A stretch of DNA of 54,006 bases from a virus (lineage: Duplodnaviria > Heunggongvirae > Uroviricota > Caudoviricetes): IMG/VR virus record IMGVR_UViG_2718218355_000004; one strand, written 5' to 3'. This document shows positions 23,320 through 43,145 of the stretch, piece after piece; positions within the stretch are counted from its first letter, which is position 1, and the number at the start of each line of letters is the position of its first letter. Under the pieces are notes generated by a model, which had not been told where the DNA came from, did no database searches, and was given only the letters and a program-made list of their open reading frames with translations. Made by a program: the position numbers and the translations under genes.

Positions 23320-24621
23320 TTAAATCCGAAGTGATGTGACTCTTCCGGTCGGTTTGACAATAGGGAATTGCTTAACGATGAAATAACCTCCGGCATCATT
23401 CGGGTGATCATTGCCAGATTTTTTATCAGGCTCCCCCTTCTCATCCCAGACCTGTTGCTCCAGAGATTCGGCATATAACGGGCAACGCTTCACATTAACT
23501 TTATAGCGACGCTCACCATTGGCATTGCAGAACATTGCATTCATTGAGTTAACGCGATCTTTTACTGGCGGGTTCGAGCTGTTCACCACAACGTTAAAAC
23601 CAGCCTGCTTAAGCTGGGCTATATCCGTCGTACTTGCGTTACTTGATTTTCTGGAATCCCCGGAAGCATCTGGATAAATATAAATTTCCCTCACTTTCCG
23701 GTAATCATTCCCATCATACAGCCAGAAGCGTTCTTTAATGATGCGGATCATATCCGGCGTATCGTAGGCATTGATGATTTCAGTTACCGCACATGGAAGC
23801 CCCAAACGCAGCACATGGACGATTCCCGCCATCTTTCCAACGTTAAAATCCATCCCAATATAAATCGGCTCCCCTGGCTGCTCCACTTCTTCGCAATTAT
23901 TCAGTTTCCGGTCAAACTGATGGTAAACAGTACCACTTGTCAGGTTAGTAAACTGTCCTCGAAGATAGGCTTTAATCAGCTCTGGAGGGTATGATTCAAG
24001 AAGCGAAGGAATGTAATCTGCTGGCAGGTTCTTTTCATTATCGAAAGTAGATGCCTGCACCAGACCATACAGTGAGGCCAGCTCTGTTTTTTCACGCACG
24101 GCTTTAACAAACTGCTCGTAGACAAATTTGAATCCTTCCGGCGTGGTTGTAACGTCAATACCGTTGCGAAGTCCATCAATCTTATAACGCATACGTGCAA
24201 TTATCTTGCGCCACGCCGTTCTGGCTTTTTCCTTCGGCAAAATGTCCAGTTCATCCACCAACGCATTACCAATTTTGAAACCGACGATCGTTTGTGGCTT
24301 CTCCATCGATCTGCAGATAGTGGTTCCCCGATACTGGCGTCCGTAATAAAAGTGAACCTCTTTATTTCCCTCATTAATTTTTACGTTCAATCCCCAGTCA
24401 GCAGCAACTTCTTCCACTGTAGGGTAAAAAATATCGCGAATTTGGGGATACGTTGGCGCAAAATATCCCTGATTTATACCTGGATGCTCCCAAATCCCCT
24501 TGCATATGCCGCCACACCCAACCCATGTTTTGCCCGAGCCAAAACCAGCAATATAGGCTTTAAATTTATGGGGCATTGAAAGAAATCGCGCCTGAGGCAC
24601 ATTAAGCGTCGGAGAGATCAT
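23320..24621 (-). CDS. Terminase large subunit
   Basis: Walker A GFGSGKT near N-terminus and nuclease-like C-terminal half; start set to internal ATG (MISPTLNV) with AAGGAG SD. Confidence 0.9.
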   Translation of the reverse strand: MISPTLNVPQARFLSMPHKFKAYIAGFGSGKTWVGCGGICKGIWEHPGINQGYFAPTYPQIRDIFYPTVEEVAADWGLNVKINEGNKEVHFYYGRQYRGTTICRSMEKPQTIVGFKIGNALVDELDILPKEKARTAWRKIIARMRYKIDGLRNGIDVTTTPEGFKFVYEQFVKAVREKTELASLYGLVQASTFDNEKNLPADYIPSLLESYPPELIKAYLRGQFTNLTSGTVYHQFDRKLNNCEEVEQPGEPIYIGMDFNVGKMAGIVHVLRLGLPCAVTEIINAYDTPDMIRIIKERFWLYDGNDYRKVREIYIYPDASGDSRKSSNASTTDIAQLKQAGFNVVVNSSNPPVKDRVNSMNAMFCNANGERRYKVNVKRCPLYAESLEQQVWDEKGEPDKKSGNDHPNDAGGYFIVKQFPIVKPTGRVTSLRI

Positions 24622-25696
24622 CTTCATCACTCCTTACTCTGGCATCAACCACATTAATATTGATCGCCACAGGCTGGGGATGTTCATTATCTTCCACCGT
24701 TTCGATCTCTTTGCGCAGCTTCTGGTTTTCCATTCTGCGCCGTTCAATTTCCAGTTCCTGTAGCCGTTTATCTGCACATAAAGCCCCGCCAGCAGAAAAC
24801 AAACGCAACAATTCACGCCGGGCGGCAGCCTTATCCTCCAGCAGGATCTCAACGCCGAATTTTCCGAATTTTGCCCCTGCATATAATTGCCGCGCATCCC
24901 CATCAAGCAGAGTGGTATCAGCCATATAAAGCTGTCCCGTTCCCTCACCGCAGCACTTCGGGCAGTCCGGATTGGGTATGGCGTTATCAACAAAGCCGAG
25001 GCCTCCATATTCCGGTTCGGGTTTGCCATCTCTGGAAGCCTGCGCCGCTGCCTTGTCGAATTCTGCTATATCGCGCCACTGGTAGAGATGATTCTCGCCC
25101 CAGCAATAACGGCAGTTAACACGGCGAAATTGTGCAAGCTGATTGGGGTCGGCCAGGACAATAGCCATCAACTGACTCACTAGTAAATCCAGGTCTGCGG
25201 TATAGCGTTTCTGGTACTGATTGCGGAAGTAGCTGATAGCGCGAAAAACCCTGGCATTTCTAAGCATACGACTGGCGTTGCTGTTAGCTGTCGCACCTTG
25301 CCCCTCATAACCGGCTAGTCGGTACGCCTCTGTCGGCTTTTTACCCTGAGCAACAAGCATCGCAAACTTAGCCTGCTGGTCAGAAATGCCGAATTCATCG
25401 GGACAGAACGAAAATTCCTCCGCGTCGCCCTCATTCAGGCCCGCATCGAATACTGGCTTTTTTTCCTGAGATTTTTCGTTCCGCTTTTGTGCAGTCTGCG
25501 CAGATTTTTTCTGCGCACTTTTTTGCGCAGTTTTGCACATTTCTGTCTGCGCATTTTTCGGAGTTTTTTTGATGTAACGACGGGCTGTTGCGTAATTCAG
25601 TCCCCTTGCTTCACACCATGCCACCGGAGATATACCGGAGCGGGTGTATTCAGCAATATACTCCTGCTGCAACGCCCCCCAGTCCGGTCTGCTCAT
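24602..25696 (-). CDS. Terminase small subunit
   Basis: 364 aa; N-terminal HTH-like region and central TerS-like segment (AYRLAGYEG...SRMLRNARV); precedes TerL. Confidence 0.7.
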   Translation of the reverse strand: MSRPDWGALQQEYIAEYTRSGISPVAWCEARGLNYATARRYIKKTPKNAQTEMCKTAQKSAQKKSAQTAQKRNEKSQEKKPVFDAGLNEGDAEEFSFCPDEFGISDQQAKFAMLVAQGKKPTEAYRLAGYEGQGATANSNASRMLRNARVFRAISYFRNQYQKRYTADLDLLVSQLMAIVLADPNQLAQFRRVNCRYCWGENHLYQWRDIAEFDKAAAQASRDGKPEPEYGGLGFVDNAIPNPDCPKCCGEGTGQLYMADTTLLDGDARQLYAGAKFGKFGVEILLEDKAAARRELLRLFSAGGALCADKRLQELEIERRRMENQKLRKEIETVEDNEHPQPVAININVVDARVRSDEDDLSDA

Positions 25697-25699
25697 CAG

Positions 25700-25951
25700 T
25701 TAGTCCTGATTTTTATCCACCCTGAGTAGTTCGCGCAGAGCAAAGGCATCCCCTTTTCTGGCAAGCTTAAACAATGCCGCTCGTAACTCGGCTTCACCTT
25801 TCGCTCTGCCCTTACGGATGGCCGCATAAAAATCTGTCATTGCTTCCCGATTTTCTTTCAGTCGGTTCAGATCAACATCCAGAACGTCAGCGATTTGTTG
25901 TGCAGTCATCCGGCACGCTGCCAGAGACTCGACTTTCGAATACGGAATCAT
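25700..25951 (-). CDS. Hypothetical small HTH-like protein (83 aa)
   Basis: ATG with strong GGGGGTGA SD; overlaps the 3' end of the upstream gene. Confidence 0.4.
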   Translation of the reverse strand: MIPYSKVESLAACRMTAQQIADVLDVDLNRLKENREAMTDFYAAIRKGRAKGEAELRAALFKLARKGDAFALRELLRVDKNQD

Positions 25952-26840
25952 TTGTCACCCCCATTGATATGCAGGGTGTCTTCTTCCTGTATTTTTCGTG
26001 AAGGATTTTTACTGCAGCGTTGTTCCAGGTGACCTGATGGTGAATGCGTTTATGGCTGGCACCCATCAGTGAGATTTTTACGCACGACGGCGCATACATG
26101 ACGGAGTAAAAACTTTTAACGTAGGTTCCGGAATCCAGATACAGCTCGGTCATTCCGCCGCTGTTTTTCTGCGTCTGTTTCTGCCCTAACTGGACAGCAC
26201 CGATCGTCATAAACAATTCACCACAGCGACCGAGATTCGTGTACGTATTCACATCCTCGTTAATGCGCCCCATGAATGAGAACGGTCGATCAACCGAACA
26301 GATAAAGCTGTTCATTGCCTTGCGTTTCACCCACGAAGCATGGCCGCCATTGTCACCAAGAAAATCCCCGCCCTGCGACATAGCGATGGAAAGAGCAGGT
26401 ATTGATTCGTAGTACGCCAGCATTTCAGAAAGGATCGCATCCAGTTTCCTTATCGGAAAATAGGCCTGGTCATAGTTGCGATCCACCCGAAACTGGAACT
26501 CGTGATAATCATCATCGAGCTGAATGAAGTATTTACACCCGACCAGTTTTGCCAGGTCGAAACAGGCATTACGGGCGTAAAAAATTGAGCGGCGGTCACA
26601 GAAATTATCGGCTTCGTCAAAACGACTGGCGATATCGGCTTTGGAAAACACCAGCACCTGTTCACCAAATTCAGCCATGTACTGATTCCGTGTCTTATCT
26701 TCATCATCAACAACGATAAAAATTTTCCCGGTATAGCCAGCACGACGCAACGTCCGGTAAGTCAGAACTTTGTCCGGTCGCCCGTGAGTCAGAATAAAGG
26801 CGCAAAAATCATCACGCATATTCCTCCTCCTCACCACCAT
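25887..26840 (-). CDS. Putative GT-A-fold glycosyltransferase-like / nucleotide-sugar transferase-like protein
   Basis: 317 aa; N-terminal FILTHGRPD...IFIVVDDED resembles the GT2 opening strand-helix-strand, plus a DxD-like LDDDYH motif; no TM segments. Family call is by motif only. Confidence 0.4.
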   Translation of the reverse strand: MVVRRRNMRDDFCAFILTHGRPDKVLTYRTLRRAGYTGKIFIVVDDEDKTRNQYMAEFGEQVLVFSKADIASRFDEADNFCDRRSIFYARNACFDLAKLVGCKYFIQLDDDYHEFQFRVDRNYDQAYFPIRKLDAILSEMLAYYESIPALSIAMSQGGDFLGDNGGHASWVKRKAMNSFICSVDRPFSFMGRINEDVNTYTNLGRCGELFMTIGAVQLGQKQTQKNSGGMTELYLDSGTYVKSFYSVMYAPSCVKISLMGASHKRIHHQVTWNNAAVKILHEKYRKKTPCISMGVTNDSVFESRVSGSVPDDCTTNR

Positions 26841-27603
26841 GCATGATCTCCACCATGCGCTGCGTCATCCGGACAAATCCATTTTCAATAGCCTGCTGAT
26901 AATCAATGATCACCAGCGCCGACTCCTCGAAAAAACACTGAATTTCAGAGGGGGCGTGAGCGTAATAGTCCGCAATTCTGCTGAAATTAAACACCGTGTG
27001 ACGTTCTGCCGCACACAGGAGGAATTTCTCAATATCAGGCTCAAGGGACGCCGAACGTATCCGGCTGATCAGCTCCTGAGTTTTCGTATCGTCGTACAGT
27101 TCACTGATATCCGGTTTACCGCCCGACGGCTCATAAACAGGCGTATCAATTTTCGTCGTATACGGCTCCTCCTCATTTCCTGTACCGGGCAAAACATCCG
27201 TCAACAGTTCATCAATTTCTGTCGGGATGAAGCCTGTCAGGGAGACATCAAAATCAGCATTGATTAGGTCCGACAGCTCCATCCGCAACAGATCTTCATC
27301 CCAGCCAGCATTCATCGGCAGGCGATTATCTGCCAGGCGGTACGCCTTTTTCTGCTCATCCGTCAGGCCAGACAGAACAATGACCGGAACAGAATCCATT
27401 TTGAGCATTTCAGCCGCCATAACACGACCGTGACCCGCAATAATTTCGCCCTTTTCGTCAATCAGCACCGGATTAGTCCAGCCGAATTGCTTAATACTTT
27501 CTACCAGTTGTGCCACCTGCTCAGGGCTGTGCGTCCTGGCGTTGTGCGCATACGGTGACAATTCTTGTAATGGGCGATAGACTATCTTTAATTTCTCGCT
27601 CAT
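26812..27603 (-). CDS. ParB-like nuclease domain protein
   Basis: 263 aa; N-terminal ParB/Srx-fold signature (IIAGHGRVMAA with upstream VPVIVL). Matches my recollection of the ParB-like gene next to trkG in Rac. Confidence 0.7.
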   Translation of the reverse strand: MSEKLKIVYRPLQELSPYAHNARTHSPEQVAQLVESIKQFGWTNPVLIDEKGEIIAGHGRVMAAEMLKMDSVPVIVLSGLTDEQKKAYRLADNRLPMNAGWDEDLLRMELSDLINADFDVSLTGFIPTEIDELLTDVLPGTGNEEEPYTTKIDTPVYEPSGGKPDISELYDDTKTQELISRIRSASLEPDIEKFLLCAAERHTVFNFSRIADYYAHAPSEIQCFFEESALVIIDYQQAIENGFVRMTQRMVEIMHGGEEEEYA

Positions 27604-27740
27604 ACAGCCTTGCTTTATGAATAAAACGCACCCCAGCAGCCAGTGCTACTGGGGACGGAGGGGTTGCTGGTAAAGTTAGGTATTGGATCAATGAGTGAGT
27701 CAACATAATATTAAACTCACAATTATAAATCAGCCATATA

Positions 27741-30760: not shown

Positions 30761-31156
30761 CTAACCTCGCATGTCAAAGCCAGATTTCTGAAAATCTCTG
30801 TAGACTTCCGGATTGTTGAAGGCCGGAAATTTGGCTTTATGAGCTGCGGACTTTATCGCTTCGCAATAGGCTTTATCACCGTTACTGGTAGATATTTTTA
30901 ACGCCGTGCCATCCTGAGAGAATTCCATATGCAACCTGCATTTTTTCCCTTTCCAGTTATGCGGCTCATCAAGTTTGGCATTAATTGCAGCTCTGATTCC
31001 CCGCGCTTGCGCCCCCCATTCATCCTGATCATCCCAGCGTCCTGAACTGCAACTACCTGTAGCAGTAGTTTTGTGGCAATCTGAAGGGTGTAAAGGTGTG
31101 CATCCCGCAACAAAACCGACCCAAAAAGTCAACATAACGATTTTCTTTAATCCCAC
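30761..31156 (-). CDS. Lipoprotein with TolA C-terminal domain (domain III)-like region, paralogue 2
   Basis: 131 aa; GTG start with GAGGAG SD; signal peptide plus lipobox VAGC; C-terminal region shares the spaced GKKC-L / DG / GD-C / EVY-F pattern with the neighbouring paralogue. Confidence 0.55.
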   Translation of the reverse strand: MGLKKIVMLTFWVGFVAGCTPLHPSDCHKTTATGSCSSGRWDDQDEWGAQARGIRAAINAKLDEPHNWKGKKCRLHMEFSQDGTALKISTSNGDKAYCEAIKSAAHKAKFPAFNNPEVYRDFQKSGFDMRG

Positions 31157-31306: not shown

Positions 31307-31735
31307 TCAGGGTTTAAAATCCAGCACCCCATTTTGAAATACTTTATATACTTCCGGCGAAGGGGGGGCAGGTATATCAGCATTCTTTATCGCATTCATC
31401 GCTTCACGACATAAATCGAGGTCTCCACTTTCTCTTTTAACCTCCAGTAGAAGGCCATTCGGGGCCATATGCATTCTCAGTGTACACTCTTTTCCTGAAT
31501 ACTTACTCGCATCCCCGAACTGTTTTTCGATGGCGCTCTTGATTTGATGGGCATACAGACGGATATCCTCACTAACATCAGAAGTACGTTCAGATGAACT
31601 CACATACTGTGTCTCTATTGCTTTATCGGAGTAATATGATGTACGGTCATGATAATTTGTCGATACAGCATCAGTGCACCCGATAATAATCCCACTAATA
31701 ATCAACGTAAGAATTGATGCGCTACGAAAACCCAT
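31307..31735 (-). CDS. Lipoprotein with TolA C-terminal domain (domain III)-like region, paralogue 1
   Basis: 142 aa; signal peptide plus lipobox IIGC; C-terminal 85 aa (QIKSAIEKQF...GKECTLRMHMAPNGLLLEV...IPAPPSPEVYKVFQNGVLDFKP) closely resembles my recollection of the TolA C-terminus. Confidence 0.6.
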   Translation of the reverse strand: MGFRSASILTLIISGIIIGCTDAVSTNYHDRTSYYSDKAIETQYVSSSERTSDVSEDIRLYAHQIKSAIEKQFGDASKYSGKECTLRMHMAPNGLLLEVKRESGDLDLCREAMNAIKNADIPAPPSPEVYKVFQNGVLDFKP

Positions 31736-32352: not shown

Positions 32353-32600
32353 GGTCAATACAAAGGATGCTTCGTCTTTATTATAGTAATCTGAGGCGTC
32401 GGGTGTCTTGTATCAGACAACATATTGTCCCGCTAAACAGCGAATTACAAACCACCCTGCAATGATCTCTCATCTCATTTTATATGAGTTGACGACATCA
32501 GGATAACGCTAGACTGGCCCCCTGAATCTCCAGACAACCAATATCACTTAAATAAGTGATAGTCTTAATACTAGTTTTTAGACTAGTCATTGGAGAGCAG

Positions 32601-32966
32601 ATGATTGATGTCTTAGGACCGGAGAAACGCAGACGGCGTACTACACAGGAAAAGATCGCTATTGTTCAGCAGAGTTTTGAACCGGGAATGACGGTCTCCC
32701 TTGTTGCCCGGCAACACGGTGTGGCAGCCAGCCAGTTATTTCTCTGGCGCAAGCAATACCAGGAGGGAAGTCTTACTGCTGTGGCCGCAGGAGAGCAGGT
32801 CGTTCCTGCCTCTGAACTTGCTGCTGCCATGAAGCAGATTAAAGAACTCCAGCGCCTGCTCGGCAAAAAAACGATGGAAAATGAACTCCTTAAAGAAGCC
32901 GTTGAATACGGGCGTGCAAAAAAGTGGATAGCGCACGCGCCCTTATTGCCCGGGGATGGGGAGTAA
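32601..32966 (+). CDS. insC: IS2 transposase OrfA (InsC)
   Basis: 121 aa from ATG at [13 protein letters not shown]; HTH transposase N-terminal domain. Confidence 0.9.
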
Positions 32967-33829
32967 GCTTAGTCAGCCGTTGTCTCCGGGTGTCGCGTGC
33001 GCAGTTGCACGTAATTCTCAGACGAACCGATGACTGGAAAGATGGTCGCCGCAGCCGTCACTCAGATGATACGGATGTGCTTCTCCGTATACACCATGTT
33101 ATCGGAGAGCTGCCCACGTATGGTTATCGTCGGGTATGGGCGCTGCTTCGCAGACAGGCCGAACTTGATGGTATGCCTGCGATCAATGCCAAACGTGTTT
33201 ACCGGATCATGCGCCAGAATGCGCTGTTGCTTGAGCGAAAAACCGCTGTACCGCCATCGAAACGGGCACATACTGGCAAAGTGGCCGTGAAAGAAAGCAA
33301 TCAACGATGGTGCTCTGACGGGTTCGAGTTCCGCTGTGATAACGGAGAAAAACTGCGAGTCACGTTCGCGCTGGACTGCTGTGACCGTGAGGCACTGCAC
33401 TGGGCAGTCACTACGGGCGGCTTCGACAGTGAAACAGTACAGGACGTAATGCTGGGAGCGGTGGAACGCCGCTTCGGCAACGAGCTTCCGGCGTCTCCAG
33501 TAGAGTGGCTGACGGATAATGGTTCATGCTACCGGGCTAATGAAACACGGCAGTTTGCCCGGATGTTGGGGCTTGAACCGAAGAACACGGCGGTGCGGAG
33601 TCCGGAGAGTAACGGCATAGCAGAGAGCTTCGTGAAAACGATAAAGCGTGACTACATCAGTATCATGCCTAAACCAGACGGGTTAACGGCAGCAAAGAAC
33701 CTTGCAGAGGCGTTCGAGCATTATAACGAATGGCATCCGCATAGTGCACTGGGTTATCGCTCGCCACGGGAATATCTGCGGCAGCAGGCCAGTAATGGGT
33801 TAAGTGATAACAGGTGTCTGGAAATATAG
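32924..33829 (+). CDS. insD: IS2 transposase OrfB (InsD), DDE catalytic domain
   Basis: 301 aa overlapping insC in the -1 frame (typical IS3-family OrfAB arrangement). Confidence 0.9.
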
Positions 33830-36888: not shown

Positions 36889-38088
36889 ATGCCATTTGTT
36901 ATTTATGTGTTTACTATCAGTGCCTTTGCGCTCGGACTCGCGGAATTTGTCCCCATTGGGCTGACAGACGTTATGGCTCAGGGGTTGTGTGTGGGTGTGG
37001 AGCAGACCGGGGCAGCGGTTACAACCTATGCACTGGGGGCAACGTTCGCGGCACCCGTACTGTCTGCGCTGACAGCAAGCTGGAGCCGGAAAAATGTAAT
37101 GCTTACAACTGCCGTTGTGTTTACTGCCGGTAGTCTGGCGGCCGCGTTTGCAGCCACATTACCTCAGCTCCTGTTAGCGCGGTTCATTGCTGGTCTGGGA
37201 CACGGCCTGTTTCTGGCTGCGGCATCCAGTACCGCAGCTCGTCTTGCTGGACCGGGTAAAGCAGGCAGAGCGGTGGCTGTGGTATTTGGTGGCTTTACTC
37301 TGGCGATGGCAATCGGCGTACCGCTGAGTACATGGTTGGGGGGGGTGGTCTCATGGCGTCCAGTTCTCGGCGCTATTGCCGCTTTTGGCGCGTTCGGATT
37401 CCTTGGACTGTTGTTCGGTATGAAAGATCCCGTACGCAGCGTGCCCGGTGAACATAGTGACTCAGCAATGCAGAATATCGGCATGCTGTTTAACCGTAAG
37501 TTGCTGGCCGGCGCGCTGGTTACGGTGCTGGCGTATGCAGGCTCGTTTACGGATTACACCTTTATCGCACCTATTCTGACGCAGGTGACAGGGGTTACCG
37601 GAGCAACGGTGAGTCTGTTTATGCTGGTTTACGGTATTACAGCTGCGGTAGGTAATATTCTTGGTGGGAAACTTACCGACAGCATGGGGGTTAATCGTGC
37701 CAATATACTCATCATTAGCGGCATTGTTGTTGTCGTGCTTGGTATGTGGCTGCTGTCATCCTCACCGGTGAGCATGGGCATTCTGGTTGCGCTGCTGGGT
37801 ATGGTGACATTTGCCGCAGTGCCGGCACTGCAGGCCCGTCTGATTGGTGTCGCTGAGCAACATGCTCCTCATGCGCATGGTGTTGCTGCCGGCCTGAATA
37901 TTGCGGGCTTCAACTCAGGTATAGCGCTGGGATCAGTACTGGGCAGCATTACTATAAGCCACGCCGGTATCGTGTATACCGGTATCAGCGGTGCGATTGT
38001 TTCTCTGCTCGGCCTGCTGTTGCTGCTTGCACAAATCCGTCGCAGCCACAGTCGTAAATTTCAACAGGTTAAAATCGTAGGCCAGTAA
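36889..38088 (+). CDS. MFS transporter (sugar/drug efflux-like)
   Basis: 399 aa with about 12 predicted TM helices and an MFS-type loop 2-3 motif. Confidence 0.8.
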   Translation: MPFVIYVFTISAFALGLAEFVPIGLTDVMAQGLCVGVEQTGAAVTTYALGATFAAPVLSALTASWSRKNVMLTTAVVFTAGSLAAAFAATLPQLLLARFIAGLGHGLFLAAASSTAARLAGPGKAGRAVAVVFGGFTLAMAIGVPLSTWLGGVVSWRPVLGAIAAFGAFGFLGLLFGMKDPVRSVPGEHSDSAMQNIGMLFNRKLLAGALVTVLAYAGSFTDYTFIAPILTQVTGVTGATVSLFMLVYGITAAVGNILGGKLTDSMGVNRANILIISGIVVVVLGMWLLSSSPVSMGILVALLGMVTFAAVPALQARLIGVAEQHAPHAHGVAAGLNIAGFNSGIALGSVLGSITISHAGIVYTGISGAIVSLLGLLLLLAQIRRSHSRKFQQVKIVGQ

Positions 38089-38099
38089 AGGGAGGTTAT

Positions 38100-38792
38100 A
38101 TGCTTACCCGTGAAAATATGCTTAATGGCACATTTGTCAGGGTGCATGAAGCGCTGCTCCCGGCGAATATGCTCTGGGACGCTGAAAAAATACGCGCATC
38201 AATGAACTCTACTCTGGAGGAGCGCCCGACGGGTGCTCCTGTCTGGATATTTGCCTACGGGTCATTGATGTGGAATCCCGTGCTGGCGATTGAAGAAATG
38301 CAACGGGCCCGTCTGAAAGGATGGCAGCGCAGTTTCTGCATTCGTTTGATATCCGGACGAGCGACTCCTGATGTCCCCGGCAGGATGTTATCGCTCGACG
38401 AAGGTGGAATTACCGAAGGTATTGCGTTCAGACTGCCGGAATCGACTCTTATTAATGAGCTGGAAATTGTCTGGACGCGCGAGATGATAACCGGTCTTTA
38501 CCGTCCGGTCTGGGCAGACGTTTCGCTAGGAAACGGTGAGGAAATTCAGGCGCTGGCTTTCGTATCAGACAGACTGCATCCGCATTATGAACAGGACAAT
38601 CTTACAGCGACCGTAGCGTTGAGCATCGCATCTGCCCGTGGAGACATTGGCACGAATGCAGATTATGTATGGAAACTGCAGGCCACTCTGGGTGCGTTGG
38701 GAATACGGGATGATTACGTGAGTGAACTGGCCCTTGCTCTGCATGAGGCTCCCTGTAACGATAAACTTCATCAGCGAGGCGCTTCACTATGA
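38100..38792 (+). CDS. ChaC-family gamma-glutamylcyclotransferase-like protein
   Basis: 230 aa with the ChaC signature IFAYGSLMWNP and alignment to ChaC throughout, from memory. Confidence 0.8.
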   Translation: MLTRENMLNGTFVRVHEALLPANMLWDAEKIRASMNSTLEERPTGAPVWIFAYGSLMWNPVLAIEEMQRARLKGWQRSFCIRLISGRATPDVPGRMLSLDEGGITEGIAFRLPESTLINELEIVWTREMITGLYRPVWADVSLGNGEEIQALAFVSDRLHPHYEQDNLTATVALSIASARGDIGTNADYVWKLQATLGALGIRDDYVSELALALHEAPCNDKLHQRGASL

Positions 38793-39670
38793 GCCATCTG
38801 AGCCATCTGCGAACGTTTCTTGAGGCCTATCGCTCTGGCTCCTTTTCAAAGGCGGCAGAACTACTGGGCATCACTCAGCCCGCGGCGTCACAGCATATCC
38901 AGTCTCTTGAGACTCTGGTTGGTAAGCGTCTGTTTATCAGGCAGGCCAGAGGCGTGACGGCAACCGAAGCTGCGGATGAGCTTGCCCGCTCAGTTTCACC
39001 CTTCATTGATGGTCTGGAAGAAAAGCTGTCCTCTTTCCGGTCAGGCTCTGTACGCGGGGGAACAATTAATCTGGCAGGACCGCCAGATTTTATTCATTCC
39101 CGGCTTGGGACAGTAATGGCTCCACTAATGAAGGAGGGGTATCGCCTACGCTTTCATACCGGCAATAAGCAACGTATTTATTCCCTTTTGCATGACGGGA
39201 GCGCCGATCTCGCTGTTACCGCATCTATGCCTGATGACCGTCTGTACGGCTATGCACATCTACTGACTGAACGCATGCTCCTTGTTCATGCTCCCGCCAT
39301 GTCAGAGATCATCGGATCAGAACCTGGTGCTGAAACGCTTGCCTCATTACCGCTGATTGCTTATGACGAAGAGTTGCCACTGATTAGAGCGCTCTGGGCC
39401 TCCATGTTTCAGAGAGCCCCTGAGATGCAGGCTACATTCACCATTCCGGATTTACGTATTATCCGCGACTTGGTCTGTGACGGCCACGGGTGGACAGTGC
39501 TGCCGGATTATCACTGTGACAATGACCTGAAAAGTGGTCGCCTGATTTCAGTGACACCTGCAGACCTCGCTCCGACTAATCATCTTTATCTGGTCTGGAA
39601 CAAAAGGACGGCTAATAACAGCCGAACCGCCTATGTTCGGGATTACATTCTTAAAACGTTTCCGCGTTGA
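38789..39670 (+). CDS. LysR-family transcriptional regulator
   Basis: 293 aa; N-terminal LysR HTH (FSKAAELLGITQPAASQHIQSLE) and C-terminal substrate-binding domain; start overlaps the chaC-like stop. Confidence 0.85.
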   Translation: MSHLSHLRTFLEAYRSGSFSKAAELLGITQPAASQHIQSLETLVGKRLFIRQARGVTATEAADELARSVSPFIDGLEEKLSSFRSGSVRGGTINLAGPPDFIHSRLGTVMAPLMKEGYRLRFHTGNKQRIYSLLHDGSADLAVTASMPDDRLYGYAHLLTERMLLVHAPAMSEIIGSEPGAETLASLPLIAYDEELPLIRALWASMFQRAPEMQATFTIPDLRIIRDLVCDGHGWTVLPDYHCDNDLKSGRLISVTPADLAPTNHLYLVWNKRTANNSRTAYVRDYILKTFPR

Positions 39671-39800
39671 TGTTTGAAACGGATGATTGGCGATGCGTAT
39701 CATAAGTTACGTATGTCCGCTTCTGGCACAAAGCAGACGCCCACTCTCACGCGAATGCTTTGCCCTTGACTTGCCAACAACCGTATCGCTTGCTCCGCAA

Positions 39801-41078
39801 CTATGGTTTTTTATTAGAATCTTCGCCACTAAATAAATTATAATAAATTGATTTTATTATATATCTGTCAGAATCTATATGGTCAGCACGAGTAGCATGC
39901 TCTAATGTTTCAAATGCTAGGGTTTGTGCGGCTTCAGCAAAAATTCCAGGCCACCCCTTACTCAGCATCGACAGTCCTTTAAGTACCCTTATCTGAATTT
40001 CCCTCATACTGGCACCATCGCGCGCAACAGGTGAGAAAAAGTCTTCAAGTAGATCGTTATTCTGAAGTGGTGCAACATGTACAGAAGGATATTTCACTTC
40101 TATTTCATCAGATTTATTCTGCGCGTAAGCGGAAAGTATACGTACACCTCTGCCAATGACATCAATGGCGGTTCCAGGATCGTTCACTGCGGGGGAAAGG
40201 GCTCGGCAGGCTATTTCGGCCATGACGCTAAGACAAAATCGGGGGTCCTGAGCAAATGAACGTACATCCGAGACAATAATCGTCTCAAGTAAATCGGTGC
40301 TGATTGATGACTCCTGGCCCTGACTCAGGTACAAAACTGGCGTGGACGGATGTATGAAACTGCCCGGCTGCGCCACGAGGTATACATGACGGGGATCATT
40401 GGTCAGCAGCTTGCTGAGTTTCACCATATCAACATATTCAACATAGCCAATCTTTTTCGGATAAACTGCAACCGTTCCTTTCGGCTGTTCATTGTTCTCA
40501 AGCCATGGATATCCGCCGAGACAGGGATTTCTTGCTCTCGCAATAAATGTTTCGATGGCCGCCTGTTCTACTTTTGCCGTTGTCTCACCAACCCTCCCCA
40601 GAGAGGTCAAATGCTGTATCCAGCGAAGCAATGTGATGAGGATTAAGGCAATGACAACCAGTGTTACAATGAATAAAATGACTCTCCCCCTTTCTCCATA
40701 AGCTCCCATATTGAGGGCAATAATCCCTACCAGACTGAAGAGAAAAGAACCGATGAAGGTGGCCAGTACATTTTGTGTGGTGACGTCTTCAACAACTAAA
40801 CGAGTAGCTCTGGGAGTCACATTAGTAGTGGCTGAACCGTAGGCTGTGACCATGATGCTCAGCGAAAATGTGGTCACTGCCAGCATACTCGATGCCAGTA
40901 TGTTCAGAATGTTATCGACTGCTTCCGCACCAACTTTCACGGAAACCGACTCAGGTATCATTGATTTAAAAAGAATTGATAAAAGGGCCGTTATTATTGC
41001 GACAATTGCGAATAACGTTGCCCTGAACCATAGTTTTTTAAATGTCTGCTTCAGCATCCATTTCCAGCGTGAAATCAT
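39801..41078 (-). CDS. Membrane protein, DUF2254-like
   Basis: About 425 aa with N-terminal multi-TM region and soluble C-terminal domain; start chosen at internal ATG with GAGGGA SD; family by recollection. Confidence 0.5.
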   Translation of the reverse strand: MISRWKWMLKQTFKKLWFRATLFAIVAIITALLSILFKSMIPESVSVKVGAEAVDNILNILASSMLAVTTFSLSIMVTAYGSATTNVTPRATRLVVEDVTTQNVLATFIGSFLFSLVGIIALNMGAYGERGRVILFIVTLVVIALILITLLRWIQHLTSLGRVGETTAKVEQAAIETFIARARNPCLGGYPWLENNEQPKGTVAVYPKKIGYVEYVDMVKLSKLLTNDPRHVYLVAQPGSFIHPSTPVLYLSQGQESSISTDLLETIIVSDVRSFAQDPRFCLSVMAEIACRALSPAVNDPGTAIDVIGRGVRILSAYAQNKSDEIEVKYPSVHVAPLQNNDLLEDFFSPVARDGASMREIQIRVLKGLSMLSKGWPGIFAEAAQTLAFETLEHATRADHIDSDRYIIKSIYYNLFSGEDSNKKP

Positions 41079-41113
41079 TCTGCATTCCCTCATATTGCAG
41101 CCGGGATAAATAA

Positions 41114-41134
41114 ATGCCGCCTCTGTGGCGGCAT
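41114..41134 (-). terminator. Hairpin downstream of the BCCT transporter gene
   Basis: ATGCCGCC-ACAGA-GGCGGCAT (minus strand) followed by an A/T-rich tract. Confidence 0.35.
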
Positions 41135-41141
41135 GTTGCTG

Positions 41142-43145
41142 TTAACGAACCAGATGCAGGAAGTGCAGGTGTTTTTCGTACTGGTCCAGTATGTCATTAA
41201 TCAGCTGTTCCTGATTCCAGCCCATTACATCATAATTTTGGCCGCCCTCTTTGAGATAGACTTCAGCGCGATAATATCGATGTTGTTCACTCTGCTGCTC
41301 ATCATTATCCAGCGCAGCGAGCGCGAAGGTCGGTGAGTTATACCCGCGAAGCCTCACTTCATATATATAATTCAGCTCGTTGCCCAAATCGACTTCAAGG
41401 CGAATACGATCCTCGGCGGCGTCACTGATGTGGCTTATCGTTCCCTGCTTGTTAAGTTCCTCCTGAACCAGCGTCATGGCGGGTTGGATAATGTCGTCCA
41501 TAAAACGTTTCACAAGAGAGCGCTTCGGCAAATACGCGATATTGCGTAACCTTCTCTGCCAGGGAATTGGGTTACGTGCAGCCGTAGGAGCAATAGTCGC
41601 CATGCTAAGGCTTTCACGCTTGGTCAAATCCCGACGCAGGGCTTTTAACAGTCCGTATATGGATATTAATAAGATAACTGAGAAGGGCAATGCACTCGCT
41701 ATCGTTACGGTTTGCAACGCACTCAGCCCCCCTGCGATCAGCAGGGCAATAGCAACAACGCCCATGAGCGATGCCCAGAAAATTCGCTGCCAGACGGGCG
41801 TGTTTGCCACCCCACCTGATGCCAGAGTATCCACAACCATTGCCCCCGAATCAGCAGACGTTACAAAGAAGACGATGACCATCGCCATTGCAATGAATGA
41901 CAGCACGGAAGAGAACGGGAAATGCTCCAGGAAATTAAACAGGGCAAGCGCAACATCCTGCTGAACGGTATTGGCGAGGTCAGTGGCGCCCTGGTTCATG
42001 ATGAGATAGATGGCGCTGTTTCCAAACACCGTCATCCACATGAGCGTAAAGCCGGCGGGAACAAACAACACGCCAGTCACGAACTCACGAATTGTCCTGC
42101 CGCGGGAAACGCGTGCAATGAACATACCTACAAACGGCGACCATGAAAGCCACCATCCCCAGTATAATAATGTCCAGCCCCCCAGCCAGTTGCTCGACTT
42201 GGGTTCATACGCGTAAAGGTTGAACGTTTTACTCACCAGTTCCGACAGATAACCACCCGTATTTTCCACAAATGACTTCAGCAGAAGCACAGTGGGACCC
42301 AGGCACAAGACCAGCGCCAGGAGCAACACCGCCAGGCCCAGATTAAGCTCAGACAGGATGCGTATTCCCTTGTCCAGGCCGGACACCACCGAAATCGTCG
42401 CTAACCCCGTGATGACCACGATCAAAATGACCTGTACCGTTTCATTGATGGGCACGCCGAAAAGATGGTTCAAACCGGCATTCACCTGCAATACACCGTA
42501 ACCCAGCGATGTTGCAACGCCAAAGACAGTGCCTATCACGGCGAAGATATCAACCGCGTGGCCTATAGGCCCGTAAATGCGATCGCCGATAATGGGATAG
42601 AGCGCAGAACGCAGCGTTAAAGGCAGACCGTGACGGTAACTGAAAAAGGCCAGAATCAGCGCCACGATGGCATAAATTGCCCATGCGTGCAGACCCCAGT
42701 GGAAGAACGTCAGGCGCATGGCTTCCTTCGCTGCCGCAACGGTCTCTGGAGTGCCGACAGGTGGCGAAAGATAATGCATCACAGGTTCGGCAACGCCAAA
42801 GAACATCAGGCCGATCCCCATCCCTGCCGAAAAAAGCATCGCGAACCAGGAGTGGTAGCTGAAATCAGGCTGCGCATGGTCTGGGCCCAGCTTTATATCA
42901 CCGTAACGTGAGAGTCCAAGGAACGTGACGCTCAGTAAAATCAGGGCCACAGCAAGTATGTAGAACCAGCTGGCATTCGTGAAGATTTGTTGCTGAAGTA
43001 GTTTAAAATTTTTGTCGGCGACATCCGGGAATACGGCGGCAAAGGCGACAAGAAGGAAAATTAGCAAAGCAGATGTAAAGAATACCGCTTTGTTAATCTG
43101 GCTTGTAGACTTCTTTGGGGTTGTATCATTTTCACTCATAATCAT
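41142..43145 (-). CDS. BCCT-family transporter, BetT-like (choline/betaine/carnitine)
   Basis: 667 aa; BCCT transmembrane core with conserved Trp-rich motif (WTLLYWGWWLSWSPFVGMFIARVSRGRTIREF) and long C-terminal cytoplasmic extension like BetT. Confidence 0.85.
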   Translation of the reverse strand: MIMSENDTTPKKSTSQINKAVFFTSALLIFLLVAFAAVFPDVADKNFKLLQQQIFTNASWFYILAVALILLSVTFLGLSRYGDIKLGPDHAQPDFSYHSWFAMLFSAGMGIGLMFFGVAEPVMHYLSPPVGTPETVAAAKEAMRLTFFHWGLHAWAIYAIVALILAFFSYRHGLPLTLRSALYPIIGDRIYGPIGHAVDIFAVIGTVFGVATSLGYGVLQVNAGLNHLFGVPINETVQVILIVVITGLATISVVSGLDKGIRILSELNLGLAVLLLALVLCLGPTVLLLKSFVENTGGYLSELVSKTFNLYAYEPKSSNWLGGWTLLYWGWWLSWSPFVGMFIARVSRGRTIREFVTGVLFVPAGFTLMWMTVFGNSAIYLIMNQGATDLANTVQQDVALALFNFLEHFPFSSVLSFIAMAMVIVFFVTSADSGAMVVDTLASGGVANTPVWQRIFWASLMGVVAIALLIAGGLSALQTVTIASALPFSVILLISIYGLLKALRRDLTKRESLSMATIAPTAARNPIPWQRRLRNIAYLPKRSLVKRFMDDIIQPAMTLVQEELNKQGTISHISDAAEDRIRLEVDLGNELNYIYEVRLRGYNSPTFALAALDNDEQQSEQHRYYRAEVYLKEGGQNYDVMGWNQEQLINDILDQYEKHLHFLHLVR

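What the first reader, a model, noticed from the sequence alone, without database searches (positions are those of the whole stretch)
25887..27603. ParB-like nuclease plus glycosyltransferase-like protein inserted between trkG/lysis and the terminase
A 263-aa ParB/Srx-fold protein is followed, with coupled translation, by a 317-aa soluble protein whose N-terminus (FILTHGRPD...IFIVVDDED) and LDDDYH motif look like a GT-A nucleotide-sugar transferase fold. The pair is not needed for packaging in classical lambdoid phages and sits in a known accessory slot. It could be a DNA modification or anti-restriction module; the function is open.
Basis: partly seen in the sequence, partly recalled or inferred. 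Interest (0 to 1): 0.65.

Follow-up and report, generated by a model that had tools for sequence, protein, structure and literature searches.

The report
Phage sugar-transferase with ParB-like partner
An intact Rac-type prophage of E. coli carries, just upstream of its DNA-packaging genes, a two-gene module found in tailed viruses from bacteria to haloarchaea: a sugar-transferring enzyme of the family that glycosylates phage DNA, plus a dedicated ParB-like partner; these phages have no genes for the chemical handle such enzymes normally need, so its target is unknown.

Summary
ynaK (26812-27603, minus strand, 263 aa) has a ParB-CTPase/Srx fold. It overlaps by 8 nt a GT-A glycosyltransferase of Pfam family TAGT (PF20691, 121 bits). 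The invariant DDD motif is present. The real start is probably ATG 26819 (310 aa), not the 317-aa maximal ORF.

The pair is not a casual insert; trkG is the inserted gene. In 59 of 60 related loci the same partner lies directly upstream of the transferase. In at least 42 of 50 loci the next large gene is a terminase, from several unrelated terminase families. Hosts include Proteobacteria, Firmicutes, Actinobacteria, Bacteroidota and a haloarchaeal virus.

The conserved core is the partner's C-terminal ~125-aa module. In lytic phages this module stands alone next to the transferase, without the ParB domain.

Rac and two complete Lactobacillus phages have no annotated TET or hydroxymethylase gene, so the usual acceptor is missing.

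Best reading (about 0.5): late, partner-activated glycosylation of phage DNA around packaging. Rivals are protein glycosylation, a nucleotide target, or action only on hydroxymethylated DNA.

The family and the ParB link were already noted computationally. The biochemistry is unknown. Interest is moderate to high.

The parts
26812..27603 (-). ynaK, 263 aa. This is the dedicated partner of the transferase. It has a ParB-CTPase/Srx-fold N-domain, a helical middle part, a conserved linker peptide and a C-terminal helical module. It is acidic (pI 4.5).
   Evidence: Pfam ParB_N and phrog_620 hits. PDB sequence hits. Fold search. Full-length conservation in partners from Yersinia, a haloarchaeal virus, Lactobacillus phages and metagenomes. 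pI.
27199..27603 (-). YnaK residues 1-135: the ParB-CTPase fold (about residues 1-95) plus the helical region. The P-motif reads G57-H58-G59-R60 where ParB has GERR. N93 lies at the box III position.
   Evidence: G57, H58, R60 and N93 are invariant across distant partners. Residues 3-141 match the N-terminus of phage ParB-DNA-methyltransferase fusions, phrog_498, at E = 1.2e-50. pLDDT is 70-90.
27094..27198 (-). YnaK residues 136-170: a predicted disordered linker carrying the motif Y-T-x-K-I-x-x-P-x-Y-E-P. Tyr148 and Tyr157 are invariant.
   Evidence: Translation. pLDDT below 50. Both tyrosines are invariant in 20 sequences that include stand-alone modules.
26815..27093 (-). YnaK residues 171-263: the helical C-terminal module (FLxxAAxRHxxF..IADYYA...Q.LxExSALVIID..AIxxGF). 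Together with the linker it forms the transferase-associated module, which also occurs as a stand-alone protein of about 130 aa.
   Evidence: Stand-alone homologues lie directly upstream of the transferase in a Vibrio 195-kb phage and in three metagenomic lineages. Alignment A6. No Pfam family, only sub-threshold PF23887 hits.
25887..26819 (-). TAGT-family GT-A glycosyltransferase, 310 aa (the maximal ORF runs to 26840, 317 aa). RefSeq annotates it as 'hypothetical' or 'GREB1-related protein'. Residues 283-310 are a lineage-specific acidic tail.
   Evidence: PF20691 at 121 bits. phrog_842 at E = 1.2e-103. Model with pLDDT 72 and fold hits. Start codon. Tail.
26508..26516 (-). D102-D103-D104, the DxD motif expected to bind the metal and the nucleotide-sugar.
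   Evidence: Translation IQLDDDYHE. D104 is invariant and D102/D103 are at least 90% conserved in 27 sequences down to 39% identity. All three are invariant in A1.
27631..27654 (-). Terminator-like hairpin (10-bp stem, 7 G-C pairs, T-rich tail) between the trkG stop and the ynaK start.
   Evidence: Consensus scan. It is only a pattern match. It suggests that trkG is a self-contained inserted gene and that ynaK and the transferase are read by antiterminated late transcription.
25700..25909 (-). Small ORF (69 aa in RefSeq; 83 aa as the maximal ORF starting at 25951) that overlaps the 3' end of the transferase gene. It resembles part of a terminase small subunit.
   Evidence: phrog_309 at E = 8.3e-23. 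RefSeq CDS in SE11. An 82-aa ORF sits at the same place in the Yersinia loci.
23320..25696 (-). Terminase small subunit (24602-25696) and large subunit (23320-24630). These are context: the conserved downstream neighbours of the pair.
   Evidence: Pfam Terminase_2, Terminase_6N and Terminase_6C. Synteny statistics.

Best explanation
ynaK and the downstream gene form one functional module of the phage late operon.

The downstream protein is a basic, metal-dependent GT-A glycosyltransferase of the TAGT family that uses a nucleotide-sugar. This is the family of the T2/T6 second glucosyltransferase and of the TET-associated DNA glycosyltransferases.

YnaK is its dedicated acidic partner. The partner's C-terminal module (a Tyr-rich linker peptide plus a small helical domain) is the part that goes with the transferase. 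The N-terminal ParB-CTPase fold is an added nucleotide-binding switch, the same N-terminal unit that other phages fuse to DNA methyltransferases.

Most likely, the pair is made late in lytic growth together with terminase. It then puts a sugar on replicated phage DNA shortly before or during packaging, with YnaK activating or directing the enzyme on double-stranded DNA. The modified genome would be protected from restriction or other DNA-targeting defences in the next host.

Shown here: family, fold, motifs, the gene pairing, the link to terminase, and the absence of annotated hydroxymethyl-base genes.

Inferred: late expression, DNA as the acceptor, the activator role, and the protective role.

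Unknown: which atom of DNA is glycosylated and which sugar is used.
For: Enzyme identity:
- PF20691 at 121 bits against a cut-off of 27.5.
- GT-A fold.
- DxD motif conserved down to 39% identity.
- Natural fusions of this clade to SAM methyltransferases, a sulfotransferase and P-loop kinase-like domains, all typical sugar-tailoring partners.

Obligate pairing:
- The partner is directly upstream in 59 of 60 loci (with for Nocardia phage NTR1).
- Both proteins are conserved at about 38-48% identity between E. coli, Lactobacillus phages and haloarchaeal virus HHTV-2.
- The partner's C-module alone lies next to the transferase in lytic phages.

Context is always DNA metabolism:
- A terminase large subunit is the next large gene in at least 42 of 50 loci, from Terminase_6N/3, GpA and TerL_ATPase families.
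- In lytic phages the neighbours are DNA polymerase A, SNF2 helicases, primase/helicase and a C5 DNA methylase.
- Hosts share no envelope chemistry, so the acceptor must be universal.

Charge: the transferase clade has a median pI of 8.85; partners have pI 4.05-4.63.

ParB link:
- YnaK residues 3-141 are homologous to the N-termini of phage ParB-methyltransferase fusions.
- There is an experimental precedent. A phage ParB-like protein lacking a DNA-binding domain is required for a DNA thymine dioxygenase to act on dsDNA, and both its nucleotide-binding and C-terminal domains are needed (PMC13229309).

Timing: the pair has the same orientation as the Q-like antiterminator, lysis and terminase genes. 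A terminator-like hairpin follows trkG.
Against: No gene for 5-hydroxymethylpyrimidine synthesis (TET/JBP dioxygenase, dCMP/dUMP hydroxymethylase, C5 methylase, alpha/beta-glucosyltransferase) was found among the scanned or annotated genes of:
- the window;
- the related SE11 prophage stretch, about 42 kb;
- the complete genomes of phages c5 and phi jlb1.

All characterised DNA glycosyltransferases of this kind add sugar to a hydroxymethyl or sugar hydroxyl, so no known acceptor exists on these genomes. Direct glycosylation of canonical DNA by a GT-A enzyme has no precedent known to me.

The family can also use protein acceptors: GREB1 O-GlcNAcylates ER-alpha (PMC7968844).

The rest of the evidence is weak or negative:
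- The Rac enzyme shows no pairwise or profile-sequence similarity to the T6 enzyme.
- No modified base has been reported, as far as I could find, for any phage carrying the cassette.
- The acidic partner could be an inhibitor rather than an activator.
- The C-terminal halves of both models are of low confidence.
Confidence: 0.5

Rival explanations
1. Protein glycosylation. The transferase glycosylates its own partner on the invariant Tyr148/Tyr157 (or Thr149) of the disordered linker, in a glycogenin-like way, or it glycosylates another protein. The glycosylated ParB-like protein would then be the functional product.
For: Two tyrosines are invariant in a predicted disordered, proline-rich peptide, from archaeal viruses to E. 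coli, immediately before a small domain that always accompanies the transferase. The wider family includes a protein O-GlcNAc transferase, GREB1 (PMC7968844). No DNA acceptor is evident. Sugar-tailoring fusions fit a glycan being built on any acceptor.
Against: An invariant linear motif fits a docking peptide equally well. Thr149 is not invariant. Neighbours are consistently DNA enzymes. The partner's N-domain is the one that is fused to DNA methyltransferases. The basic charge of the transferase fits nucleic-acid binding.
Confidence: 0.2
2. Nucleotide or small-molecule target. The transferase glycosylates a nucleotide, for example one bound by the ParB-fold domain or a defence signalling nucleotide. 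It would then act as an anti-defence or metabolic enzyme rather than a DNA modifier.
For: ParB-CTPase folds bind CTP, ATP or GTP (PMC12704722). The P-motif arginine R60 and N93 are invariant. Nucleotides are universal acceptors with free hydroxyls. Fusions to P-loop kinase-like domains exist, and a cytidylyltransferase-like gene lies next to the transferase.
Against: The stand-alone partner lacks the nucleotide-binding domain altogether yet keeps the pairing. No characterised member of the family acts on free nucleotides. Linkage to terminase or polymerase is not explained.
Confidence: 0.1
3. Classical activity only. The enzyme still needs 5-hydroxymethylcytosine/uracil or glucosyl-hmC. It would therefore act only on such DNA, for example DNA of superinfecting T-even-like phages, as exclusion or interference. 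Otherwise it is a relic in these prophages.
For: It shares a Pfam family and a PHROG with the T6 enzyme. A preprint has floated the idea that prophage glycosyltransferases might hypermodify invading genomes.
Against: The protein is very strongly conserved with an intact active site in hundreds of lineages, including haloarchaeal and Lactobacillus phages; as far as I know, no hmC phages are described for those hosts. It sits in the late operon behind a terminator-like hairpin, not in a lysogen-expressed position. It has no detectable similarity to the T6 enzyme.
Confidence: 0.08
4. Packaging or partition accessory. YnaK acts as a ParB-type nuclease or DNA-organising factor that helps terminase, as HNH proteins do in cos phages, or it partitions the phage genome. 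The transferase would be a passenger.
For: The pair lies immediately upstream of terS/terL in most loci, and directly after the cos site in phage c5. The 'ParB-like nuclease' label is traditional.
Against: No ParA gene and no HTH domain were found, and no parS site was looked for. The protein is acidic. The pairing holds with four different terminase families and also far from any terminase in lytic phages. The part that is always kept is the non-ParB C-module together with the transferase. Lambda packages without these genes.
Confidence: 0.07

Closest known systems
T2/T6 beta-glucosyl-HMC-alpha-glucosyltransferase. This is the characterised founder of Pfam PF20691 and the name PHROG 842 gives to the Rac protein.
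   Same: Same Pfam family and same PHROG. Same GT-A fold class (PMC13216743). Both are encoded by phages.
   Different: No pairwise or profile-sequence similarity. The T6 enzyme scores 37 bits on the Pfam model, the Rac enzyme 121. T6 adds a second glucose to alpha-glucosyl-hmC and sits beside the gene at T4 gene 42's position (annotated 'thymidylate synthase', presumably dCMP hydroxymethylase), with an alpha-glucosyltransferase gene about 12 kb away. Rac has none of these. T6 has no annotated ParB-like or C-module partner in the 30-kb stretch examined. The inherited product name is therefore misleading for the Rac protein.
TET/5mYOX-associated phage DNA glycosyltransferases (Burke et al. 2021, PMC8256090; bioRxiv 10.1101/2023.12.21.572611) and the kinetoplastid base-J glucosyltransferase
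   Same: GT-A enzymes that glycosylate DNA after replication. In metaviromes they are often found near ParB-like genes and terminases.
   Different: Those enzymes use 5hmC or 5hmU made by a neighbouring dioxygenase, with or without a C5 methyltransferase. No dioxygenase or methyltransferase is annotated in the Rac window or in phages c5 and phi jlb1.
ParB-dependent thymine dioxygenase system ParB176/5mYOX176 (O'Toole et al. 2026, PMC13229309)
   Same: A phage ParB-fold protein with a nucleotide-binding domain and a C-terminal domain, but no evident DNA-binding domain, is encoded beside a DNA-modifying enzyme. It is needed for that enzyme's activity on dsDNA. This is the best working model for YnaK.
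   Different: The client enzyme is a Fe/2OG dioxygenase, not a glycosyltransferase. I could not test whether YnaK's C-module is homologous to the ParB176 C-terminal domain because the sequences are not held.
ParB-N fused DNA methyltransferases of prophages (phrog_498; N6_N4_Mtase fusions surveyed in PMC12704722)
   Same: YnaK residues 3-141 match the N-terminal 140 residues of these fusions at E = 1.2e-50. The fusions are enriched in prophages.
   Different: There the catalytic domain is fused to the ParB-N unit. Here the ParB-N unit carries a non-catalytic module, and the catalytic protein is a separate gene whose start overlaps the ynaK stop.
GREB1 glycosyltransferase domain. UniRef and newer RefSeq annotation call the Rac protein 'GREB1-related'.
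   Same: A related GT-A domain, according to the database naming.
   Different: GREB1 is a large eukaryotic protein that O-GlcNAcylates a protein, ER-alpha (PMC7968844). The relationship was not tested here beyond the database names.

Membership tests
Pfam PF20691 TAGT (TET-associated glycosyltransferase) | Profile match above the curated gathering score | tested here: met
   121 bits against a cut-off of 27.5, E = 8.4e-35, residues 15-229 covering profile positions 4-205 of 205.
Pfam PF20691 TAGT (TET-associated glycosyltransferase) | GT-A fold with a conserved DxD nucleotide-sugar/metal motif | tested here: met
   All significant PDB fold hits are GT-A enzymes such as SpsA, LARGE1, COLGALT1 and glycogenin. 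The top viral hits are TAGT-domain proteins, with TM-score normalised by target length up to 0.76. D102-D104 are conserved.
Pfam PF20691 TAGT (TET-associated glycosyltransferase) | Genomic association with an enzyme that makes the hydroxymethyl or glucosyl acceptor (TET/JBP dioxygenase with a C5 methylase, or a pyrimidine hydroxymethylase with alpha/beta-glucosyltransferase) | tested here: not met
   None was found among the window genes scanned with Pfam or in the SE11 RefSeq annotation of the related prophage stretch. None is annotated in the complete genomes of phages c5 and phi jlb1. None appears within 7-8 kb of the gene in nine metagenomic or genomic lineages, apart from one C5 methylase in L173.
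Pfam PF20691 TAGT (TET-associated glycosyltransferase) | Transfer of a sugar to a DNA base | not testable with these tools
   Needs biochemistry or nucleoside mass spectrometry.
T2/T6 beta-glucosyl-HMC-alpha-glucosyltransferase (the PHROG 842 product name) | Membership of the same remote-homology cluster | tested here: met
   Against phrog_842, the Rac protein scores E = 1.2e-103 and the T6 protein E = 3.6e-85.
T2/T6 beta-glucosyl-HMC-alpha-glucosyltransferase (the PHROG 842 product name) | Recognisable sequence similarity to the characterised T6 enzyme | tested here: not met
   Best BLASTP E = 1.6. hhalign of the clade profile against T6 gives probability 0.1.
T2/T6 beta-glucosyl-HMC-alpha-glucosyltransferase (the PHROG 842 product name) | A phage that makes alpha-glucosyl-hmC DNA (dCMP hydroxymethylase plus alpha-glucosyltransferase) | tested here: not met
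   Both genes are annotated in the T6 stretch examined; the one at T4 gene 42's position is labelled 'thymidylate synthase'. Both are absent from the window genes scanned and annotated.
ParB-CTPase / ParB-Srx fold | ParB_N domain and fold | tested here: met
   PF02195 at 28.9 bits against a cut-off of 26.3. PDB sequence hits to Spo0J/ParB. Fold hits to Noc, ParB, PadC, KorB, Srx and SerK.
ParB-CTPase / ParB-Srx fold | Conserved nucleotide-binding residues (P-motif GxxR arginine, box III asparagine) | tested here: met
   G57, H58, R60 and N93 are invariant in partners from E. coli to HHTV-2. This shows conservation only; nucleotide binding itself is not testable here.
Canonical ParABS partition ParB | HTH DNA-binding domain, ParA partner, parS site | tested here: not met
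   No HTH or dimerisation-domain Pfam hit. No ParA among the genes scanned or annotated. pI 4.5. parS sites were not searched for.
ParB-activated DNA-modifying enzyme pairs (ParB176/5mYOX176 type) | A ParB-fold protein with a nucleotide-binding domain and a C-terminal domain, no DNA-binding domain, encoded next to a DNA-modifying enzyme | tested here: inconclusive
   The architecture and adjacency match. The client enzyme is of a different class. Homology of the C-terminal domains could not be tested because the sequences are not held.
ParB-activated DNA-modifying enzyme pairs (ParB176/5mYOX176 type) | Enzyme activity on dsDNA depends on the ParB-like protein | not testable with these tools
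   Needs in vivo or in vitro reconstitution.
ParB-N DNA methyltransferase fusions (phrog_498) | ParB-N unit plus a fused methyltransferase domain | tested here: not met
   The N-terminal unit is homologous: residues 3-141 against profile positions 31-171 of 633, E = 1.2e-50. No methyltransferase domain is present.

The most novel reading that the evidence does not exclude
The ParB-linked TAGT clade puts a sugar directly on canonical DNA, on a base nitrogen or oxygen, the backbone or a DNA end, with no prior hydroxymethylation. It would do so under the control of a ParB-CTPase-fold partner, around the time of packaging. That would be a new chemical class of DNA modification. It would be present in a sixth of sequenced E. 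coli genomes (as Rac-type prophages) and in tailed viruses of at least four bacterial phyla and haloarchaea.
Probability: 0.25. Interest if true: 0.9.

Novelty: new variant of a known kind. Interest (0 to 1): 0.62.

Why it matters
Every characterised phage DNA glycosyltransferase depends on a hydroxymethylated base. This clade is common, strongly conserved and clearly intact, yet it sits in small temperate phages with no recognisable way to make such a base.

- If the target is DNA, there is an undescribed DNA modification in very common E. coli prophages. It would affect restriction, CRISPR and other defences, and nanopore/PacBio sequencing of induced phages. The enzyme could also be useful as a tool.
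- If the target is the partner protein, this would be the first glycosylated ParB-fold protein.

Either way, the module offers a second, genetically tractable case of a ParB-fold protein working with a modifying enzyme. It can be tested in E. coli, because K-12 has lost these genes by deletion and so provides a clean background for adding them back. A 2026 paper lists 'solitary TAGT' phages (288 of 753) as functionally undefined (PMC13216743). This locus is a convenient entry point to that question.

Tried and rejected
Dead ends:
- Iyer et al. 2013 (NAR), the paper that named TAGT and proposed that ParB directs modification enzymes, is not held. I know its claim only through citations.
- A single-protein scan of viral contigs returned only near-identical E. 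coli prophages. An alignment query was needed to reach diverse loci.
- A profile search of PDB sequences with the transferase clade found nothing meaningful. Only fold comparison worked.
- The AFDB50 fold library was unavailable.
- The YnaK model has a low-confidence C-terminal part, so the fold of the C-module is unresolved.
- Sequences of ParB176 are not in the held supplements.
- Literature searches for ynaK, PF20691 and ParB plus glycosyltransferase found no functional study of this pair. The M.EcoGII/ParB lead from memory could not be verified and is not used.

Readings rejected:
- A morphogenesis protein without a transferase fold.
- A seroconversion glycosyltransferase. The module is conserved across hosts with unrelated envelopes.
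- A plasmid-type partition system. There is no ParA or HTH, and the protein is acidic.
- A natural ParB-TAGT fusion. The long homologues turned out to be fusions to methyltransferase, sulfotransferase, kinase-like or second TAGT domains.
Full report
**What the window is.** The window is an intact Rac-type lambdoid prophage of E. coli. The 2.3 kb around the finding is 100% identical to many E. coli chromosomes, including strain SE11, and to induced 'vB_EcoS' phage records. In SE11 the minus-strand gene order is: DUF1133/antiterminator-Q-like protein, two TolA-C-terminal-like genes, holin, lysozyme, lysis protein, trkG, the ParB/Srx protein (named ynaK in many other RefSeq E. coli records), a 'hypothetical protein', a small ORF, terS, terL, portal, head and tail genes. 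The Q-like label rests on a weak window Pfam hit (Phage_antitermQ, 26.1 bits against a cut-off of 26).

**Observation.** Both ORFs are present as described.
- ynaK (26812-27603, 263 aa) matches Pfam ParB_N just above threshold, and strongly matches PHROG 620. Its model matches ParB, Noc, PadC, KorB, sulfiredoxin and serine-kinase structures.
- The downstream ORF carries the quoted motifs.
- Its true start is most likely ATG 26819. Every homologue begins MR(D/E)DF. A GAGGAGGAGG run precedes that ATG, and ATGCGTGA overlaps the ynaK stop by 8 nt. RefSeq aa.

**The transferase.**
- It hits Pfam PF20691, the TET-associated glycosyltransferase family TAGT, at 121 bits against a cut-off of 27.5.
- An AlphaFold model (pLDDT 72; mostly above 90 over the first ~150 residues, with dips near residues 70-80 and 110-120) finds only GT-A glycosyltransferases in the PDB. 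Among viral models it finds TAGT-domain proteins first.
- D102-D103-D104 (26508-26516) are conserved down to 39% identity, as are D41, N187 and D189.
- By position these resemble the uracil-binding Asp, the DxD motif and the catalytic base of inverting GT2 enzymes such as SpsA. That is my recollection and was not tested here.

**Relation to the characterised enzyme.** PHROG 842 names the protein 'beta-glucosyl-HMC-alpha-glucosyltransferase' after the T2/T6 enzyme. The T6 protein is in the same PHROG and Pfam family. It shows no pairwise or profile-sequence similarity to the Rac protein. It also sits beside the hydroxymethylase-position gene, with an alpha-glucosyltransferase gene about 12 kb away. 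The transferred name should not be read as a function.

**The pair is a conserved module, not an insert.**
- Homologues number in the thousands: at least 7970 by word-index search, and 1324 clusters at 50% identity.
- Loci with a precomputed ParB_N hit upstream show ParB-like (about 260 aa), transferase (overlapping start), terS, terL in Yersinia and in a metagenomic phage. Locus L002 has the same layout, but its 284-aa upstream gene carried no precomputed Pfam hit and was recognised only by my partner profile.
- The same order holds in Lactobacillus phages c5 (directly after the cos site) and phi jlb1, Nocardia phage NTR1 and a Porphyromonas phage. In haloarchaeal virus HHTV-2 the terminase lies about 3 kb downstream.
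- I ran my own ORF calling and HMM searches on 60 loci. The partner is directly upstream in 58, plus NTR1 by its annotation. The one exception has it 3 kb upstream.
- The first large downstream ORF is a terminase large subunit in at least 42 of 50 non-identical loci. The families are Terminase_6N (34), GpA (4) and TerL_ATPase (4), with Terminase_3 hits that overlap Terminase_6N.
- In the slot between lysis and the pair, Rac has trkG while a Yersinia prophage has an LT-II-like enterotoxin. That slot, not the pair, is the accessory site.

**The partner's anatomy.** Full-length alignment of partners from E. coli, Yersinia, metagenomes, HHTV-2 and Lactobacillus phages (38-56% identity) shows four parts:
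1. A ParB-CTPase fold with invariant G57-H58-x-R60 and N93.
2. A helical region.
3. A predicted disordered linker with the motif Y-T-x-K-I-x-x-P-x-Y-E-P.
4. A helical C-terminal domain.

Residues 3-141 match the N-termini of phage ParB-DNA-methyltransferase fusions at E = 1.2e-50.

The key result concerns parts 3 and 4. In the ~195-kb Vibrio phages the gene directly upstream of the transferase encodes only these two parts (139 aa, E = 8e-51 to my partner profile). Searching with YnaK residues 136-263 finds many stand-alone proteins of about 130 aa. In all three lineages examined, these lie immediately upstream of, or one gene away from, a TAGT gene, next to DNA polymerase A, SNF2 helicases, a C5 DNA methylase, a SAM methyltransferase or a cytidylyltransferase-like gene.

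Across 20 such sequences Tyr148, Tyr157, E226, L230, V231, D234, A238 and G242 are invariant. The module has no Pfam family, only sub-threshold PF23887 hits. So the core unit is C-module plus transferase, and the ParB fold is an addition typical of the terminase-linked versions.

**Further clues.**
- The transferase clade is basic (median pI 8.85). The partners are acidic throughout (pI 4.05-4.63).
- Members of the clade are fused to SAM methyltransferases of the small-molecule type, to a sulfotransferase, to P-loop kinase-like domains, or duplicated in tandem. This is the repertoire of sugar tailoring.
- A terminator-like hairpin lies between trkG and ynaK. This suggests the pair is transcribed with the late genes rather than in the lysogen. 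That is a pattern match, not a measurement.

**The missing acceptor.** No TET/JBP dioxygenase, pyrimidine hydroxymethylase, C5 methylase or alpha/beta-glucosyltransferase was found among the window genes scanned with Pfam or in the SE11 annotation of the related prophage stretch. None is annotated in the complete genomes of phage c5 (31.8 kb) and phi jlb1 (38.3 kb). The known acceptors of the family (5hmC, 5hmU, glucosyl-hmC) are therefore not provided.

**Literature.**
- A 2026 NAR paper notes that 288 of 753 phages have 'solitary' TAGT homologues of undefined function.
- Burke et al. 2021 cite Aravind's proposal that ParB proteins direct modification machinery during packaging.
- O'Toole et al. 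2026 show experimentally that a phage ParB-like protein without a DNA-binding domain is required for a thymine dioxygenase to act on dsDNA. They report ParB, glycosyltransferase and terminase genes as the commonest neighbours of phage dioxygenases.
- A 2025 survey of ParB-CTPase folds describes prophage fusions to methyltransferases but does not mention glycosyltransferases or YnaK.
- GREB1, after which databases name the Rac protein, O-GlcNAcylates a protein.
- I found no functional study of ynaK or of this pair.

**Interpretation.** The best-supported model is a late-expressed, two-subunit DNA glycosylation module. The basic GT-A enzyme is activated or directed by its acidic partner through the C-module. 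The ParB fold acts as a nucleotide-dependent switch, and the module works on replicated DNA around packaging (confidence about 0.5).
- Shown: membership, fold, motifs, pairing, synteny, and the absence of annotated hydroxymethyl-base genes.
- Inferred: late expression, DNA as the acceptor, the activator role, and protection from defences.
- Main rival: glycosylation of the partner's invariant tyrosine peptide (0.2).
- Minor rivals: a nucleotide target (0.1), activity restricted to hydroxymethylated DNA (0.08), and a packaging or partition accessory role (0.07).

**Prevalence and tractability.** The near-complete pair is present in 889 of 5426 complete E. coli genomes. About 690 further genomes hold only a remnant, ranging from partial copies to the K-12-type ynaK stump. 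In K-12 MG1655 ynaK is an 87-aa stump joined by deletion to ydaY, and the transferase and terminase are gone. That probably explains why the module has not been studied, and it gives a clean host for reconstitution.

**Verdict.** The genes belong to known families, and the ParB link has been noted computationally. The clade's acceptor and biology are unknown, and the standard acceptor is absent. I file it as a new variant of a known kind, interest 0.62.

Noticed in passing
L005:2180-3332 (Yersinia enterocolitica prophage; sister locus L006 lacks it): A heat-labile enterotoxin type II-like A/B gene pair (Pfam Enterotoxin_a/Scabin-like plus LT-IIB). It sits between the lysis cassette and the ParB-transferase pair, in the slot where Rac has trkG.
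   Followed up: no
window 27631-27654 (minus strand): A terminator-like hairpin (10-bp stem, 7 G-C pairs, T-rich tail) between the trkG stop and the ynaK start. It suggests trkG is a self-terminating inserted gene.
   Followed up: partly
window 30761-31156 and 31307-31735 (minus strand): Two small ORFs upstream of the holin. In strain SE11 they are annotated as TolA C-terminal-domain proteins. Their role in the phage is unexplained.
   Followed up: no
window 32556-33829 and 36889-43145: An IS3-family element (orfA/orfB). Beyond it is a block of cargo genes not seen at this place in SE11: MFS transporter, ChaC-like protein, LysR regulator, DUF2254 membrane protein and BCCT transporter. The block lies inside the prophage between the Q-like region and the replication genes and has higher G+C.
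   Followed up: partly
L181:4378-4981 (E. coli K-12 MG1655, Rac): K-12 ynaK is an 87-aa stump followed directly by ydaY. The deletion removed the rest of ynaK, the transferase, the terminase and the head genes.
   Followed up: yes
window 25887-25970 (transferase residues 283-310): The E. coli lineage has a 28-aa acidic C-terminal tail that is absent from other homologues. It overlaps the start of the next small ORF by 23-65 nt.
   Followed up: partly
proteins P0128, P0130, P0164, P0151, P0186, P0199, P0147, P0148: Members of the same transferase clade are fused to SAM methyltransferase, sulfotransferase or P-loop kinase-like domains, or duplicated in tandem.
   Followed up: partly
L173:7001-10982 and L178:6976-9766: In lytic-type metagenomic phages the stand-alone C-module and the transferase are flanked by a SAM methyltransferase, a C5 DNA methylase and a dGTP diphosphohydrolase-like gene (L173). 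In L178 the flanks are DNA polymerase A, a cytidylyltransferase-like gene and a weak beta-clamp-like ORF. These are possibly larger modification clusters.
   Followed up: no
L003:15837-16894: Two further Glycos_transf_2 genes lie just after the capsid gene in a metagenomic phage that also has the ParB-transferase pair.
   Followed up: no
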